Assembly (NCBI GenBank): GCA_947451985.1
Contig: CANGBQ010000001.1
Location: 11,471-75,470 of the forward strand
Source: Chitinophagaceae bacterium
GTDB lineage: Bacteria; Bacteroidota; Bacteroidia; Chitinophagales; Chitinophagaceae
Direction of reading: 5' to 3'
DNA length: 64,000 bases
Under the pieces are notes generated by a model, which was given only the letters and a program-made list of their open reading frames with translations, was not told the DNA's origin and did not search any database. Positions within the stretch are counted from its first letter, which is position 1; each line of letters begins with the position of its first letter. The translations under genes were made by a program, and so were the position numbers. Below, one piece after another: positions 12,693 through 18,984 of this stretch.

Positions 12693-12700
12693 CAAAGGTA
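12693..12700 (-). promoter_or_regulatory. -7 element (TACCTTTG) for tatC-rpiB-M28
   Basis: Exact TAnnTTTG, 28 nt upstream of the tatC ATG and downstream of the 12749-12781 terminator. Confidence 0.6.
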
Positions 12701-12748
12701 GCACCATTTATATTTTCAACTCCAAGATATTCAATCATTCTTTTCTTC

Positions 12749-12781
12749 AAAAAAAAGAAGGCCCCTGTAGAAACAGGGGCC
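12749..12781 (-). terminator. Directional intrinsic terminator (minus strand)
   Basis: GGCCCCTGT-TTCT-ACAGGGGCC followed by TTCTTTTTTTT. There is no U-tract on the plus-strand side. Confidence 0.85.
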
Positions 12782-12828
12782 GTTCACAAAACTAACTGCG
12801 TATGAAAAAACTTAACCATCGTTTTTCA
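12749..12828 (-). ncRNA. Candidate ~80-nt small RNA (two hairpins, sigma54-type promoter)
   Basis: Bounded by a -24/-12 motif (12840-12853) and the terminator. 5' hairpin UGAAAAAC/GUUUUUUCA. No sizeable ORF on this strand. Prediction only. Confidence 0.5.
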
Positions 12829-12839
12829 ATACAACAGGG

Positions 12840-12853
12840 GCAAAGAACATGCC
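12840..12853 (-). promoter_or_regulatory. Putative sigma54 (RpoN) -24/-12 promoter
   Basis: Minus strand reads GG-CATGTTCTTT-GC, with the exact GG-N10-GC spacing plus GGCAyG and TTGC cores. It deviates from consensus at -26 (G) and -11 (C). Confidence 0.5.
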
Positions 12854-12904
12854 CAATCTCTTTATAATTGTTAAGAATTAGCCAAGATTGCCAGTACATC
12901 TCTT

Positions 12905-13969
12905 TTATTGCTGCGTGGTCAGTTTTTCTGCATTTTCAGCAAACTGCAGGGCATCAATAAACTCTTGAATTTCGCCATTGATAACTGTATCGAGGTTGTA
13001 GACAGTCAATCCGATTCTGTGATCGGTGACCCTGCCCTGCGGATAATTATAGGTTCTAATTTTGGCACTGCGATCGCCTGTGCTCACCAAGCTTTTCCGT
13101 TGTTTGGAAATGGCTTCTTCTGCTTTTCTTACCTCTTCATCATACAATTTGGTTCGAAGCATGTCCATCGCTTTTTCCCGATTGGCCAACTGGCTTCTCT
13201 CTGTTTGGCAAACCACTACAATGCCCGTGGGTTTATGGGTTAGAAACACTTTGGTTTCTACCTTGTTCACGTTCTGGCCTCCCGCACCGCCACTTCGCGC
13301 GGTTTCCATTTTTACATCACTTTCTTTTAATTCGAAATCAATTTCATCTGCTTCCGGCATAATGGCTACGGTAGCCGCACTGGTGTGTACCCGGCCACTG
13401 CTTTCAGTATCCGGAACCCTTTGTACCCGATGAACGCCGCTTTCAAATTTCATCGTGCCGTATACATCATCTCCTTTAATTTCCACCTGCACCTCTTTGT
13501 ATCCGCCCACCGTTCCTTCGCTTTCGCTGAGAATGGCTGTCTTCCAGCCTTTCTTCTCACAATATTTGATGTACATCCTTAACAAGTTCCCGGCAAACAA
13601 AGAGGCTTCGTCCCCGCCGGTACCTGCCCTGATTTCCAAGATGGCATTTTTCTCATCAAATGGATCTTTAGGAATCAGCATGGTTCTGATTTCCTTCTCC
13701 AGTTGCTCTTGTTGTGTTTCCAATGCGGGCAATTCCAATTTGGCCATATTGCGCATCTCTTCGTCATCAGAATGCAGTACTTCTTTATTGAAAGCGATGT
13801 CATCTAATAATTTTACATAGGCGTTCCGAACGTCCACAATTTTTCCCAAACTGCGATATTCCTTGCTCATGGCGCTAAACTTCTTATTGTCGCTTACAAT
13901 TTCAGGATTGGTCAATGCCACCCCGAGGTTGTCGAATTTCGCCTTGATCGCATCTAGTTTATCTAACAT
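12905..13969 (-). CDS. prfA: Peptide chain release factor 1
   Basis: GGQ motif, PxT recognition tripeptide (RVPDTE), [26 protein letters not shown]. Confidence 0.96.
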
Positions 13970-16638: not shown

Positions 16639-18984
16639 ATGTGGCAACGTTTAGGAAAATTTGTGTTACGCAACAGAATGATTTTATTGGCTTTGCTGTT
16701 GATCAGCTCTGTCTGGATGGGTTATTTTGCTTCCAAAGTAAAGCTTAGCTATGAGTTTGCCCGTGCTATTCCGACCGACAATCCCAAATACGAGGAATAT
16801 GTATCTTTTAAAAAAATGTTTGGGGATGATGGCAATTTAATGGTGGTCGGCGTTCAAACACCCGATTTTTTTACCTTAAAGCAGTTTACTGCTTATCAGG
16901 AAATGAACCAACAAATCAAAGCTGTTATAGGGGTGAATGATGTGTTAAGTGTGCCCGCTGCTGTTTTGTTACAAAGGGACAGTATCGAAGAAAAGTTGAA
17001 TGCTGTCAAAATATTTCCCTCCACTTTTACCGATCAAAAAGCCTTGGACAGTGCCAAGGCCCTTTTTCTGAATCTTCCTTTTTACCAGTCTTTGCTGTAC
17101 AATTCTGCTACAGGTGCTTATTTGATGGCCATCAAAATCAACAAGGACATACTCAATTCAGCTGCAAGGGTACAAGTGGTGAATGCCATTACCAAAGCCA
17201 CGCATCAGTTTGAACAGCAAACAGGCGCCGAAGTGCATCTGAGTGGCCTTCCGCTGATTCGAACCGTGGTAGCAGAAAGAATTCAGAAAGAGATGAGATT
17301 GTTTCTAATTGGATCTATTCTATTCAGTATTCTGATTTTGCTCTTGTTTTTCCGTTCTGTGGCCACTACTTTGATTTCGATTTCTGTCGTGATCTTGGGC
17401 GTGATCTGGACAATGGCTTTGATTTATTTGTTTGGATATAAAATCACTTTGTTAACGGCCCTGATTCCATCATTGGTGGTGGTGATTGGTATTCCCAATT
17501 GCATCTATTTTATCAACAAGTACCATACTTCTTATCTCCAGCACCCGAATGACAATGAGGCAGATAGAAAAAACAATGCATTGGTAGACATGGTCAGCAA
17601 AATGGGCGTTGTTACGCTGTTTTGTAATATCACGGCTGCTATTGGTTTTGCCGTCTTTGCCCTTACCAAAAGCGCCATTCTGCAAGAGTTTGGATGGGTA
17701 GCCGGCAGTAGCATCATGGTTATTTTTCTTATTTCTTTTATCCTGCTGCCTGCAGTTCTTAGTTTGATACCTGCTCCCAGCCCTATTCAGTTGCGTTATC
17801 TGGACAATAAGTGGATTAGCGCCTTCTTAAACAAAGTGGAAATATGGGTGTTTGGCCATCAAAAAACCATTCTGGGGTTGACAGCAGGCATCGTATTGTT
17901 TTCTATAGCAGGGGTACTGCGCCTGCAATCGGTTGCTTACATTGTAGATGATCTCCCCAAGAAAGATAAGATTTACATGGATTTATCTTTTTTTGAAAAA
18001 AACTTCAAGGGGGTGATGCCACTCGAAATTGTCATTGATACCAAGAAAAAAAATGGATTAGCGGGCATGAAAGCCTTGACTGTTTATGAAAAAGTGGATG
18101 CTTTGTCAGCGTACATTGCACAAAGAAGAGAAATGAATAAACCCCTTTCCATTGCGGAGGGTTTAAAGTTTGCCAAACAAGGATTTTACGAAAATGATTC
18201 CACCCAATACCTGCTGCCCAATAGTTTTGACGGTGCTTTTGTAGGCGAATATTTAAAACCCAGCAAAGGACAATCCAACAATAATTTTTCTAAAATGTTA
18301 CTTTCTTTTTTAGACAGCAGCAGAAGATATACACGCATCAGTGTGAGCATGGCTGATATTGGCACCCAGCGGCTGCCGACAGTACTGAATGATATCCAAC
18401 AGAAAGCCAATGAGTATTTCGACTCTAGTCATTATACAGTATCCCTCACTGGTACCAGTATTACTTTTTTGGAAGGAAGTCGTTTTATCATCAATGGCCT
18501 CAAAGAGAGCATTGTATGGGCATTTTTGTTGATTGCTTGTTGTATGCTGTATTTGTTCCGTTCGTTCAGGATATTGGTTTGCTCTCTGATTCCGAATTTG
18601 ATTCCATTGTTGATTACAGCAGGTATCATGGGGTGGGTAGGTGTGCCTTTAAAGCCTTCTACGGTATTGGTGTTCAGTGTGTCATTGGGCATTGCCATTG
18701 ACATTACCATCCGCTTTCTGGTCAATTACCGACAAGTGCTTCCCTTGTCAGAAAATAATATTGAAAAAGCCGTGAAACACACGGTGCAACAAACAGGCTT
18801 AAGTATTATTTATACGTCGCTTGTGTTGACTGCGGGATTTGTGATTTTTTGTGCCAGTAGTTTTGGCGGAACCTTTGCATTGGGATGGCTCACTTCTGTG
18901 ACCTTGCTCTCGGCAACCATTACCAATTTGGTTTTGTTACCGGTACTATTGTTGATATTGAATAAGTCGAAAGCTAAAAGCTAA
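16639..18984 (+). CDS. MMPL/RND-family transporter
   Basis: Two repeats of a periplasmic loop plus TM bundle; IGIPNCIYF and GIAIDITIRF signature helices. Confidence 0.85.
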   Translation: MWQRLGKFVLRNRMILLALLLISSVWMGYFASKVKLSYEFARAIPTDNPKYEEYVSFKKMFGDDGNLMVVGVQTPDFFTLKQFTAYQEMNQQIKAVIGVNDVLSVPAAVLLQRDSIEEKLNAVKIFPSTFTDQKALDSAKALFLNLPFYQSLLYNSATGAYLMAIKINKDILNSAARVQVVNAITKATHQFEQQTGAEVHLSGLPLIRTVVAERIQKEMRLFLIGSILFSILILLLFFRSVATTLISISVVILGVIWTMALIYLFGYKITLLTALIPSLVVVIGIPNCIYFINKYHTSYLQHPNDNEADRKNNALVDMVSKMGVVTLFCNITAAIGFAVFALTKSAILQEFGWVAGSSIMVIFLISFILLPAVLSLIPAPSPIQLRYLDNKWISAFLNKVEIWVFGHQKTILGLTAGIVLFSIAGVLRLQSVAYIVDDLPKKDKIYMDLSFFEKNFKGVMPLEIVIDTKKKNGLAGMKALTVYEKVDALSAYIAQRREMNKPLSIAEGLKFAKQGFYENDSTQYLLPNSFDGAFVGEYLKPSKGQSNNNFSKMLLSFLDSSRRYTRISVSMADIGTQRLPTVLNDIQQKANEYFDSSHYTVSLTGTSITFLEGSRFIINGLKESIVWAFLLIACCMLYLFRSFRILVCSLIPNLIPLLITAGIMGWVGVPLKPSTVLVFSVSLGIAIDITIRFLVNYRQVLPLSENNIEKAVKHTVQQTGLSIIYTSLVLTAGFVIFCASSFGGTFALGWLTSVTLLSATITNLVLLPVLLLILNKSKAKS

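What the first reader, a model, noticed from the sequence alone, without database searches (positions are those of the whole stretch)
12749..12853. Candidate sigma54-dependent ~80-nt small RNA hidden between prfA and tatC
Seen: the terminator lies about 125 nt past the prfA stop, much further than needed. In that gap the minus strand has GG-CATGTTCTTT-GC (exact -24/-12 spacing, 12853-12840), predicting a start near 12828. The predicted RNA is UGAAAAACGAUGGUUAAGUUUUUUCAUACGCAGUUAGUUUUGUGAACGGCCCCUGUUUCUACAGGGGCCUUCUUUUUUUU: a 5' hairpin, a single-stranded U-rich linker and a 9-bp GC terminator with U8. tatC has its own -7 promoter downstream, so this unit is self-contained. Established: GG-N10-GC is the RpoN signature and needs an enhancer-binding activator. 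Inference: an independent RpoN-controlled sRNA gene, which I cannot assign to any known family. Novelty is unverified.
Basis: partly seen in the sequence, partly recalled or inferred. Interest (0 to 1): 0.8.

Follow-up and report, generated by a model that had tools for sequence, protein, structure and literature searches.

The report
Conserved sigma-54-type small RNA gene
The gap between prfA and tatC holds one copy of an apparently undescribed small regulatory RNA family found in about three quarters of Chitinophagaceae genera, usually driven by a sigma-54-type promoter like the one in front of the family's heat-shock genes; this particular copy is the most diverged one seen.

Summary
GG-N10-GC alone occurs at chance frequency in the window, but comparison with relatives supports the reading.

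- **Family.** The 3' two thirds of the predicted RNA (a ~30-nt core plus the terminator) occur in 109 of 150 sampled Chitinophagaceae genera, at 1-7 copies per genome. No credible copy was found in other families of the order.
- **Structure.** All 9 terminator pairs show compensatory changes.
- **Promoter.** 45% of 156 copies carry a 9/10 or better match to TGGCAC-N5-TTGC at a fixed distance, against 0.6% of control windows. A conserved TTAACA lies 22 nt upstream. With no mismatch, the composite motif matched only sRNA genes in 14 genomes.
- **Regulon.** The same promoter type precedes dnaK, grpE and hsp20 in this family. Some hsp20 genes carry the RNA core in their 3' UTR.
- **Machinery.** The genome encodes rpoN and one activator, which lacks a sensor domain.
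- **Known families.** Nothing matches in Rfam, and no paper in the library describes it.

**Caveats.** No expression data could be obtained. Targets are unknown. This copy has a weakened promoter and three changes at otherwise invariant core positions. Its closest relatives have lost the gene at this locus.

**Verdict.** It is a real, new sRNA family of a known kind.

The parts
12905..13969 (-). prfA (peptide chain release factor 1), 354 aa. It has no terminator of its own, so its mRNA must end at the sRNA terminator.
   Evidence: ORF. Pfam PCRF and RF-1 domains. No hairpin lies between the stop codon and 12854. The same holds in 22 of 24 relatives.
12869..12874 (-). Conserved upstream promoter motif TTAACA, a candidate activator or architectural-protein site. 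Here it lies 20 nt upstream of the position before the -24 GG; the family spacing is 22 nt.
   Evidence: Alignment of 82 sigma-54-type promoters of the family. With no mismatch, the composite TTAACA-N16-TGGCA-N6-TTGC matched only sRNA genes in 14 genomes.
12840..12854 (-). Sigma-54-type -24/-12 element GGGCATgttctTTGC, an 8/10 match to TGGCAC-N5-TTGC with correct GG-N10-GC spacing. It lies 56 nt upstream of the core's CAGTTAG; the family mode is 57 nt.
   Evidence: It is homologous to TTTGGCATtggttTTGC of the nearest alignable orthologue, L003.
12749..12828 (-). Predicted primary sRNA of about 80 nt. The 5' end at 12828 is inferred from the -12 position and is not measured.
   Evidence: The covariance model built from 19 genus copies scores 81.2 bits over 12748-12846.
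12782..12813 (-). Conserved core AAGUUUUUUCAUACGCAGUUAGUUUUGUGAAC (family consensus AAUUUUCUCAUAAGCAGUUAGUUUUGGUAAAC). It is the presumed seed and contains an anti-start-codon CAU flanked by U runs. This copy differs from the consensus at three otherwise near-invariant positions.
   Evidence: In the 19-sequence genus alignment the window copy is the one sequence that departs at columns 44/61 and 48/58. In the 99-sequence alignment a single sequence departs at each of the corresponding pairs.
12760..12781 (-). Intrinsic terminator hairpin with a 9-bp stem. The loop and closing pair, GUUUCUAC, are also conserved across the family.
   Evidence: Across 99 sequences, 9 of 9 pairs show compensatory changes and 99.8% of cells are paired; 0 of 500 shuffles reach the observed values.
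12749..12759 (-). U-tract of the terminator (UUCUUUUUUUU).
12693..12700 (-). TACCTTTG, a match to the Bacteroidota primary-sigma -7 box TAnnTTTG. It is the likely own promoter of tatC, downstream of the sRNA terminator.
   Evidence: Sequence. The consensus is from published knowledge of Bacteroides promoters (see PMC7366714).
11828..12664 (-). tatC, 278 aa.
   Evidence: Pfam TatC.

Best explanation
**What it is.** Positions 12828-12749 on the minus strand are this genome's single copy of a small RNA gene family conserved across Chitinophagaceae. A family member consists of:
- a short variable 5' leader;
- a ~30-nt nearly invariant, mostly unpaired core (UUUUCUCAUAAGCAGUUAGUUUUGGUAAAC);
- an intrinsic terminator.

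**How it is probably transcribed.** The copy at the prfA/tatC locus starts from a dedicated sigma-54-type promoter (TTAACA-N16-TGGCAY-N5-TTGC). It would therefore need RpoN and an enhancer-binding ATPase. This genome has exactly one such ATPase. It lacks a sensor domain, like PspF, and sits in the operon miaB-EBP-lptE. prfA has no terminator of its own, so the same sequence also forms the prfA 3' UTR.

**Likely regulon (inferred).** Sigma-54-type promoters also precede dnaK, grpE and hsp20 in this family. Some hsp20 mRNAs carry the core in their 3' UTR. The RNA is therefore probably the riboregulatory arm of the sigma-54 heat-shock or proteotoxic-stress regulon.

**Likely mechanism (inferred).** The core probably pairs with the translation-initiation regions of mRNAs and blocks initiation. 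Its CAU flanked by U's is complementary to AUGAGAAAA, and in this genome's version to AUGAAAAAA, the commonest start of signal-peptide proteins. Other Bacteroidota sRNAs act in this way.

**Shown and not shown.**
- Shown: family conservation, terminator covariation, promoter association, and the presence of rpoN and the activator.
- Inferred: the 5' end, RpoN dependence, stress induction and the targets.

**What the confidence covers.** It refers to the core claim, a real sRNA gene family with a sigma-54-type promoter of which this is the orthologue. The stress-regulon link rates about 0.5 and the start-codon-masking mechanism about 0.35.
For: **Family is real and widespread**
- The core plus terminator is 75-91% identical in 24 of 25 congeneric genomes.
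- The covariance model hits 110 of 151 family genomes (109 of 150 genera) at E<=1e-6, with 1-7 copies each.
- It gives no credible hit in other families of the order.
- An exact 18-mer scan found at least 120 stretches. Nearly all records are named Chitinophagaceae genera or less specific Bacteroidota/Chitinophagales MAGs; a few MAG labels differ.

**RNA-level constraint**
- All 9 terminator pairs show compensatory changes.

**Promoter association**
- A 9/10 or better match to TGGCAC-N5-TTGC lies upstream of 71 of 156 copies, against 0.6% of control windows. The position mode is -57 from the core.
- The architecture TTAACA-N16-TGGCA-N6-TTGCGTTAT is conserved.
- With no mismatch, the composite motif hit only sRNA genes, 7 times in 14 genomes. 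The reversed-pattern controls, counted at up to 1 mismatch, totalled 5.
- All 11 metagenomic tatC-linked copies have it.

**Machinery**
- The genome has one rpoN and one PF00158 activator with an HTH_8 domain and no N-terminal sensor domain.
- rpoN is present in 150 of 151 family genomes.

**Link to heat-shock genes**
- TGGCATAATSATTGA lies upstream of dnaK in 18 of 22 genera, and the other four have one-base variants.
- Similar elements precede this genome's dnaK and grpE and 4 of 4 hsp20 genes whose 3' UTR carries the core.
- This agrees with the published prediction of sigma-54 promoters at chaperone genes in Bacteroidota (PMC12316311).

**Not protein-coding**
- Both the antisense and the sense short ORFs vary in length or are absent in relatives.

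**Anti-start complementarity**
- Stretches of 9 nt or more complementary to the window core occur in the start regions of 84 of 1510 predicted genes, nearly all at AUGAAAAAA.
- The internal control gives 8, and shuffled cores give 15 +/- 10.
Against: - There are no expression data.
- The window copy is the weakest family member examined.
  - Its -24 element has G in place of T, giving an 8/10 match.
  - Its TTAACA is 2 nt too close.
  - It scores below the top hits when the family promoter matrix is scanned over this genome.
  - Three near-invariant core positions are changed.
- In three close tatC relatives (85%, 80% and 73% identity) prfA abuts tatC with no sRNA gene. The gene is therefore dispensable and has been lost repeatedly in this lineage.
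- About half of all family copies lack a sigma-54-type promoter.
- No conserved long target site exists.
- Complementarity to AUGAAAAAA is low-complexity. The family consensus instead matches the much rarer AUGAGAAAA, found at 4 versus 57 gene starts in this genome.
- Many copies have -12 TTGA or TTGT in place of TTGC.
Confidence: 0.7

Rival explanations
1. In this genome the element is only the prfA 3' UTR and terminator. It would be a decaying remnant of the family sRNA gene, with an internal promoter that no longer fires. Any short RNA would arise by read-through and processing of prfA mRNA.
For: - prfA has no other terminator.
- The promoter match is 8/10, with the TTAACA spacing off by 2 nt.
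- Three invariant core positions are mutated.
- The closest relatives have deleted the gene.
- The genome is small: a 1.78-Mb assembly estimated 92% complete.
Against: - The GG-N10-GC spacing and the promoter-to-core distance (56 nt, against a mode of 57) are intact.
- rpoN and the activator are retained.
- About 90 nt of non-coding DNA between the prfA stop and the core are kept in a small genome. Close relatives that lost the gene have a prfA-tatC spacer of about 60 nt or less.
- T at -26 is not essential in characterised sigma-54 promoters (general knowledge).
Confidence: 0.2
2. The invariant core together with the conserved terminator loop is a protein-binding module. It might bind, for example, the RRM-type RNA-binding protein that this genome encodes. 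The RNA would then act as a sponge or decoy, or as a 3'-end stability tag on mRNAs such as hsp20 and prfA, and not by base-pairing with targets.
For: - About 26 nt plus the loop UUUCYA are invariant across the whole family, which is more than a typical seed.
- The module always sits at a transcript 3' end, including after hsp20 and prfA.
- No conserved complementary target was found.
- An RRM protein with an RGG tail is encoded on contig C23.
- Bacteroides RbpB binds sRNAs in a sequence-specific way (PMC11697453).
Against: - Long invariant regions are also known in base-pairing sRNAs that have many targets, such as Qrr (general knowledge).
- The core contains a start-codon complement in the context that all characterised Bacteroidota sRNAs use (PMC11697453).
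- There is no direct evidence for protein binding.
Confidence: 0.15
3. It is a non-functional dispersed repeat, a REP/MITE-like terminator cassette that has spread through Chitinophagaceae genomes.
For: The element is multicopy. It sometimes forms tandem arrays, for example three copies about 165 nt apart downstream of prfA in G013.
Against: - It has a syntenic position across many genera.
- It has no terminal repeats or target-site duplications.
- One strand only is used.
- It has a dedicated conserved promoter.
- Purifying selection on the core extends across a whole family.
Confidence: 0.03
4. It encodes a micropeptide: the 11-codon sense ORF AUG GUU AAG ... UGA, or the 21-codon antisense ORF MKKLNHRFSIQQGQRTCPISL.
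For: Both ORFs exist in the window sequence.
Against: - The sense AUG is absent in relatives.
- The antisense ORFs range from 4 to more than 22 codons with unrelated sequences.
Confidence: 0.02

Closest known systems
Qrr1-5 quorum-regulatory sRNAs of Vibrionaceae (sigma-54 plus LuxO)
   Same: Both are ~80-100-nt RNAs made from sigma-54 promoters and ending in intrinsic terminators. Both occur in one to several paralogues per genome. Both have a long invariant single-stranded region shared by all paralogues.
   Different: There is no sequence or covariance-model similarity. The phylum is different. The activator here lacks a receiver domain and is not adjacent to the RNA gene. The likely signal is proteotoxic or heat stress, not quorum sensing. 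Only about half of the paralogues use the sigma-54-type promoter.
FopS family and GibS of Bacteroides thetaiotaomicron (PMC11697453, PMC7366714)
   Same: Both are multicopy Bacteroidota sRNA families with a single-stranded seed followed by a terminator. In both, some members derive from 3' UTRs. The presumed mode of action, pairing at or next to the start codon in a phylum without Shine-Dalgarno sequences, is the same.
   Different: No Rfam hit to FopS appears even at E<=10. FopS genes use the primary sigma promoter and GibS uses motif PM2, not a -24/-12 element. The FopS seed is at the 5' end, whereas here the conserved part abuts the terminator and the 5' end is variable. SusC targeting could not be confirmed here.
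Envelope-stress sRNAs of Enterobacteria: sigma-E-dependent MicA, RybB and MicL, and CpxQ from the cpxP 3' UTR
   Same: In both cases an alternative-sigma stress regulon pairs chaperone genes with sRNAs that may lower synthesis of exported proteins. In both, sRNA copies are embedded in the 3' UTR of a stress or chaperone gene (hsp20 here, cpxP there) or carry their own promoter inside an upstream gene's 3' region (MicL).
   Different: The sigma factor differs (sigma-54 type, not sigma-E or the Cpx system). There is no Hfq. Stress induction and the targets are unproven here.
GlmY/GlmZ (sigma-54 plus GlrR) and CrcZ (sigma-54 plus CbrB)
   Same: These are sRNA genes with sigma-54 promoters and conserved upstream activator sites.
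   Different: Those RNAs act by protein sequestration, or their activator genes lie next to them. They share no sequence or structure with this RNA.
PspF-type enhancer-binding proteins
   Same: The only activator in this genome has the AAA+ sigma-54 domain and a C-terminal Fis-type HTH but no N-terminal sensory domain, as PspF does.
   Different: It is 417 aa with a long linker. It lies in the context miaB-EBP-lptE. No PspA-like partner was identified, and its link to the sRNA promoter is inferred only.

Membership tests
Any Rfam 15 family (including FopS, Qrr, GlmY/Z, CrcZ) | Covariance-model match at or near the gathering score | tested here: not met
   With the E-value threshold at 10, the window copy and a consensus-type copy, L009, give only chance hits of 12-20 bits against gathering scores of 37-114. 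None of these is FopS or Qrr. Six cultured-species loci give nothing at gathering thresholds. I could not independently confirm that the FopS model is in this library copy.
Sigma-54-dependent promoter | GG and GC (or G) dinucleotides separated by exactly 10 nt, matching TGGCAC-N5-TTGC | tested here: met
   The window has GG-CATGTTCTTT-GC, an 8/10 match. Of the family copies, 71 of 156 match at 9/10 or better, against 0.6% of controls.
Sigma-54-dependent promoter | Conservation of the -24/-12 element at a fixed distance from the transcript in orthologues | tested here: met
   The position mode is -57 from the core and the window copy is at -56. The element is conserved in all 11 metagenomic tatC-linked copies and in the genus alignment.
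Sigma-54-dependent promoter | rpoN and at least one enhancer-binding ATPase encoded in the genome | tested here: met
   PF04552 gives 1 hit at 176.9 bits. PF00158 gives 1 strong hit at 233.6 bits, with HTH_8. rpoN is present in 150 of 151 family genomes.
Sigma-54-dependent promoter | Transcription abolished without RpoN or the activator, and a 5' end about 12 nt downstream of the -12 element | not testable with these tools
Trans-acting base-pairing sRNA | Non-coding, own promoter and Rho-independent terminator, conserved accessible seed | tested here: met
   No ORF is conserved. The terminator covaries. The core is invariant, and only a weak, non-covarying mini-hairpin is predicted in it.
Trans-acting base-pairing sRNA | Identifiable conserved complementary target site | tested here: inconclusive
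   Hits to the 17-mer with up to 3 mismatches in 11 genomes are at control level, apart from the sRNA genes themselves. An 11-mer scan of 1.5 Mb gave 46 hits against 38 in the control. Only the generic AUGAAAAAA or AUGAGAAAA start class matches.
3'-UTR-embedded sRNA with its own internal promoter (MicL/DapZ type) | The upstream gene shares the sRNA terminator, and the promoter lies downstream of or within the upstream gene's 3' part | tested here: met
   No terminator lies between the prfA stop and the sRNA, here or in 22 of 24 prfA-linked relatives.

The most novel reading that the evidence does not exclude
The RNA may be the post-transcriptional arm of a sigma-54-driven heat-shock or envelope-stress response in Bacteroidota, which lack RpoH. 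When the sensor-less activator is released, chaperone genes (dnaK, grpE, hsp20) and this sRNA would be switched on together. The sRNA's anti-start-codon core would then broadly dampen translation of signal-peptide proteins with MRK/MKK starts. This would relieve the secretion and folding machinery, making the RNA a functional analogue of the sigma-E sRNAs MicA, RybB and MicL and of CpxQ, built from unrelated parts.
Probability: 0.25. Interest if true: 0.75.

Novelty: new member of a known kind. Interest (0 to 1): 0.55.

Why it matters
Riboregulation in Bacteroidota outside gut Bacteroides is almost unexplored, and I found no described sigma-54-dependent sRNA in the phylum. This family is present in most Chitinophagaceae, which are abundant in soil, freshwater and activated sludge. 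It has a promoter architecture that, without mismatch, matched only its own gene in the 14 genomes scanned.

It also ties in with the predicted but little-tested sigma-54 control of heat-shock chaperones in this phylum. That gives a concrete, easily assayed reporter for the regulon and for the conserved sensor-less activator encoded next to lptE. Several cultured species carry the RNA, among them Sediminibacterium salmoneum, Terrimonas ferruginea, Flavihumibacter petaseus and Niabella drilacis, so the idea can be tested directly.

Tried and rejected
- **Rfam.** Scans of the window copy, a consensus copy and six cultured-species loci gave nothing above chance, and no FopS or Qrr hit.
- **Literature.** Five searches found no description of this RNA.
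- **Extra copies in this genome.** The four weak model hits (21-31 bits) are ordinary terminators without the core.
- **Family promoter matrix scanned over this genome.** No second site was found, and the window's own promoter scores low because of its 2-nt spacing change.
- **Genome-wide list of TGGCAC-N5-TTGC matches in this genome.** It is dominated by coding-sequence chance hits. One example is a perfect match inside the CGCGTSF end of an iscA/erpA-like gene.
- **Target search.**
  - RNAduplex over 1510 start regions gave hits dominated by AU-rich MKK starts, and none was compelling.
  - The 17-mer complement with up to 3 mismatches in 11 genomes hit at control level.
  - The 11-mer complement over 1.5 Mb of family DNA gave 46 hits against 38 in the control.
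  - Genes with MRK starts in this genome show no extended pairing.
- **Window-specific core variant in metagenomes.** An exact search found no match.
- **rpoN co-occurrence.** The test is uninformative because rpoN is universal in the family.
- **Micropeptide readings.** Rejected, because the ORFs are not conserved.

Full report
**1. Observation**

The features below are on the minus strand.
- prfA occupies 13969-12905.
- A 240-nt spacer follows.
- tatC occupies 12664-11828.

- GG-CATGTTCTTT-GC is at 12853-12840.
- A 9-bp G+C-rich hairpin is at 12781-12760, followed by UUCUUUUUUUU to 12749.
- The gap from the prfA stop to the hairpin is 124 nt.
- The 80-nt RNA folds better than shuffled versions, at -26 kcal/mol with z = -3.35.

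A two-mismatch match to TGGCAC-N5-TTGC is not special in this window: 74 were found and 79 expected. The motif can therefore only be judged by comparison with relatives.

**2. It is a conserved RNA family**

A DNA search of relatives found positions 12815-12749, the core plus terminator, at 75-91% identity in 24 of 25 genomes of the same genus. Several genomes had more than one copy, and one has three tandem copies behind prfA.

An alignment of 19 copies shows three parts:
- a variable, A/C-rich 5' part;
- an almost invariant stretch, AUUUUCUCAUAAGCAGUUAGUUUUGGUAAAC;
- a terminator whose loop, UUUCYA, is also conserved.

A covariance model built from this alignment gave these results.
- This genome has one copy, at 81 bits. 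The weaker hits are plain terminators.
- No credible copy exists in other families of the order.
- Copies exist in 110 of 151 genomes, or 109 of 150 genera, of the family, at 1-7 per genome.

The named records include Ferruginibacter, Sediminibacterium, Terrimonas, Niabella, Niastella, Chitinophaga, Flavihumibacter, Puia, Dinghuibacter and Hanamia. Many others are labelled only as Chitinophagaceae, Chitinophagales or Bacteroidota MAGs, and a few MAG labels differ.

On 99 aligned copies all nine terminator pairs show compensatory changes, and 99.8% of cells are paired. The shuffle and slide controls fall far below these values. The predicted mini-hairpin inside the core never varies, so its reality cannot be judged.

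Short ORFs on either strand are not conserved.

**3. The promoter**

Near-perfect sigma-54 elements lie upstream of the copies in relatives. An example is TTGGCACttgatTTGCG.
- Over 156 copies, 45.5% have a 9/10 or better match within -120 to -25 of the core, against 0.6% of random windows from the same loci.
- At 8/10 or better the figures are 55% against 2.4%.
- The positions peak sharply at -57 from the core's CAGTTAG. The window's element is at -56.

Aligned on the -24 element, 82 promoters share the pattern TTTAAA..TTC.TTAACA-N16-TGGCA(C/T/G)-N5-TTGCGTTAT. The TTAACA lies exactly 22 nt upstream.

I searched 14 genomes for the composite TTAACA-N16-TGGCA-N6-TTGC. All seven mismatch-free hits were sRNA genes. 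The reversed-pattern controls, counted at up to one mismatch, totalled five. This is therefore a dedicated promoter, usually present once per genome.

All 11 tatC-linked copies on metagenome contigs have it as well.

The flanks of this primary copy are drawn from a small set of genes.
- Upstream: prfA, an unknown protein or a radical-SAM gene.
- Downstream: a convergent vanZ-like gene or tatC.

It is thus one syntenic locus, and the window holds its orthologue.

**4. Machinery and regulon**

- The genome has one rpoN.
- It has one true enhancer-binding protein. This is 417 aa, with an AAA+ sigma-54 domain and a Fis-type HTH but no N-terminal sensory domain. It is encoded between miaB and lptE.
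- rpoN is universal in the family.

While listing -24/-12 matches I noticed that this genome's dnaK and grpE carry TGGCAT/A-N5-TTGA just upstream.
- Across 22 genera, 18 dnaK genes have TGGCATAATSATTGA 40-70 nt upstream of the start. The other four have one-base variants.
- All four hsp20 genes that carry the sRNA core 19 nt after their stop codon have TGGTAY-N5-TTGA upstream.

This fits a published comparative prediction that sigma-54 promoters are enriched at GroEL/ES, DnaK/J, GrpE and IbpA genes in Bacteroidota (PMC12316311). The sRNA therefore appears to belong to a sigma-54 chaperone regulon, and the hsp20 3'-UTR copies would be co-expressed through the hsp20 promoter.

Other paralogues lack the -24/-12 element. 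Some of them have a TAnnTTTG -7 box preceded by repeated CTTTAAC motifs.

**5. Relation to prfA**

No terminator lies between the prfA stop and the sRNA, either here or in 22 of 24 prfA-linked relatives. The RNA sequence therefore also forms the prfA 3' UTR. The arrangement is that of a 3'-UTR-embedded sRNA with its own promoter.

**6. Mechanism**

The most economical reading is a base-pairing sRNA whose core is the seed.
- The core contains CAU flanked by U runs, complementary to AUGAGAAAA. In this genome's version it is complementary to AUGAAAAAA.
- In this genome, stretches of 9 nt or more complementary to the core occur in the start regions of 84 of 1510 predicted genes. Nearly all are AUGAAAAAA starts of MKK-type signal-peptide proteins.
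- The internal control gives 8, and shuffled cores give 15 +/- 10.
- All characterised Bacteroidota sRNAs (GibS, FopS, MasB, BatR) pair near start codons (PMC11697453).

I could not find a specific conserved target.
- Near-full-length complements occur at control frequency.
- Single-genome duplex predictions are dominated by AU-rich starts.
- AUGAGAAAA, the start matched by the family consensus, is rare: 4 genes against 57 with AUGAAAAAA. None of those genes shows extended pairing.

A protein-binding or sponge role for the unusually long invariant module cannot be excluded. The genome encodes an RRM-type RNA-binding protein.

**7. This particular copy**

This is the most diverged copy examined.
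- Three near-invariant core positions are changed: UUUUCUCAU to UUUUUUCAU, CAUAAG to CAUACG, and UUGGUAAAC to UUGUGAAC.
- The -24 element begins with G instead of T.
- The TTAACA is 2 nt closer to the -24 element.

In three close tatC relatives on metagenome contigs (85%, 80% and 73% identity) prfA abuts tatC and the sRNA gene is gone. The gene may therefore be drifting in this small-genome lineage. Against that, the GG-N10-GC spacing, the promoter-to-core distance and the terminator are all intact. I put the chance that this copy is still an active sigma-54-type sRNA gene at about two in three. I put the chance that the family is real at more than nine in ten.

**8. Comparison and novelty**

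No Rfam family matches, and no paper in the library describes this RNA.
- By design it is closest to the Qrr sRNAs: sigma-54, multicopy, with a long invariant region.
- By phylum and presumed mechanism it is closest to FopS and GibS.
- By presumed physiology it is closest to the stress sRNAs MicA, RybB, MicL and CpxQ.

It is a member of none of these. Earlier notes of this scan had found the same family in other genomes. I reproduced the family, the promoter association and the absence from Rfam independently. I did not confirm the suggested susC targeting.

It is a new family of a known kind. Interest is moderate, and would be higher if the link to a sigma-54 heat-shock regulon holds.

Noticed in passing
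Own genome contig C22 (dnaK) and C99 (grpE-dnaJ); loci L306-L335: Sigma-54-type elements sit upstream of chaperone genes. TGGCATAATSATTGA lies 40-70 nt upstream of dnaK in 18 of 22 Chitinophagaceae genera, and the other four have one-base variants. A conserved CTG(C/A)CA(A/T)TTTT.CAC lies 12-14 nt further upstream. This genome's grpE has TGGCAAcatgtTTGA. This agrees with the comparative prediction in PMC12316311.
   Followed up: partly
L036, L037, L038, L040 (other genera of the family): hsp20 genes carry the sRNA core plus terminator 19 nt after their stop codon. These same genes have TGGTAY-N5-TTGA about 55-60 nt upstream of their start, so the sRNA module would be co-transcribed with a small heat-shock protein.
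   Followed up: partly
Own genome contig C76 (L171:781-2034, minus strand): The only true enhancer-binding protein of this small genome has no sensory domain (AAA+ and HTH_8 only, 417 aa). It lies in an apparent operon miaB-EBP-lptE, and its start is 3 nt after the miaB stop.
   Followed up: partly
G013:C13:123628-124023; G230:C54:9822-10315; G314:C33:120025-120302; G267:C64:48810-49253: Tandem arrays of two or three sRNA copies spaced about 165-340 nt apart occur in some genomes. In G013 the array lies directly behind prfA.
   Followed up: no
L012, L013, L054, L126: Some paralogues lack the -24/-12 element. They have instead two or three direct repeats of CTTTAAC upstream and, in L012 and L054, a TAnnTTTG -7 box. 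This suggests a second, primary-sigma promoter class under another regulator.
   Followed up: no
L029, L032, L061, L125, L136, L151, L160 and similar: In many genera the sigma-54-driven copy has a longer leader that carries a second, diverged copy of the seed (CUCAYAUAAAGCAGUCA) directly upstream of the invariant one. These RNAs therefore have a duplicated core.
   Followed up: no
window 12838-12854: In this genome the -24/-12 element is itself a 5-bp inverted repeat, GGGCA-N7-TGCCC. It is not seen in relatives and is probably a by-product of the T-to-G change.
   Followed up: no
L237, L244, L253 (metagenome contigs): In three close relatives prfA and tatC are separated by about 60 nt or less and the sRNA gene is absent. 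The gene has thus been lost repeatedly at this locus.
   Followed up: partly
Own genome contig C23 (plus strand, from about base 17331): A 127-aa RRM-type RNA-binding protein with a C-terminal RGG-rich tail is encoded here. It is the same protein class as Bacteroides RbpA/B/C. A crude motif scan found no Hfq-like ORF.
   Followed up: no
Own genome contig C73, about 7533 (minus strand): A perfect TGGCACcagttTTGC lies inside the last codons (CGCGTSFAV) of an iscA/erpA-like gene, followed by a terminator. It is most likely a coding-sequence coincidence.
   Followed up: no
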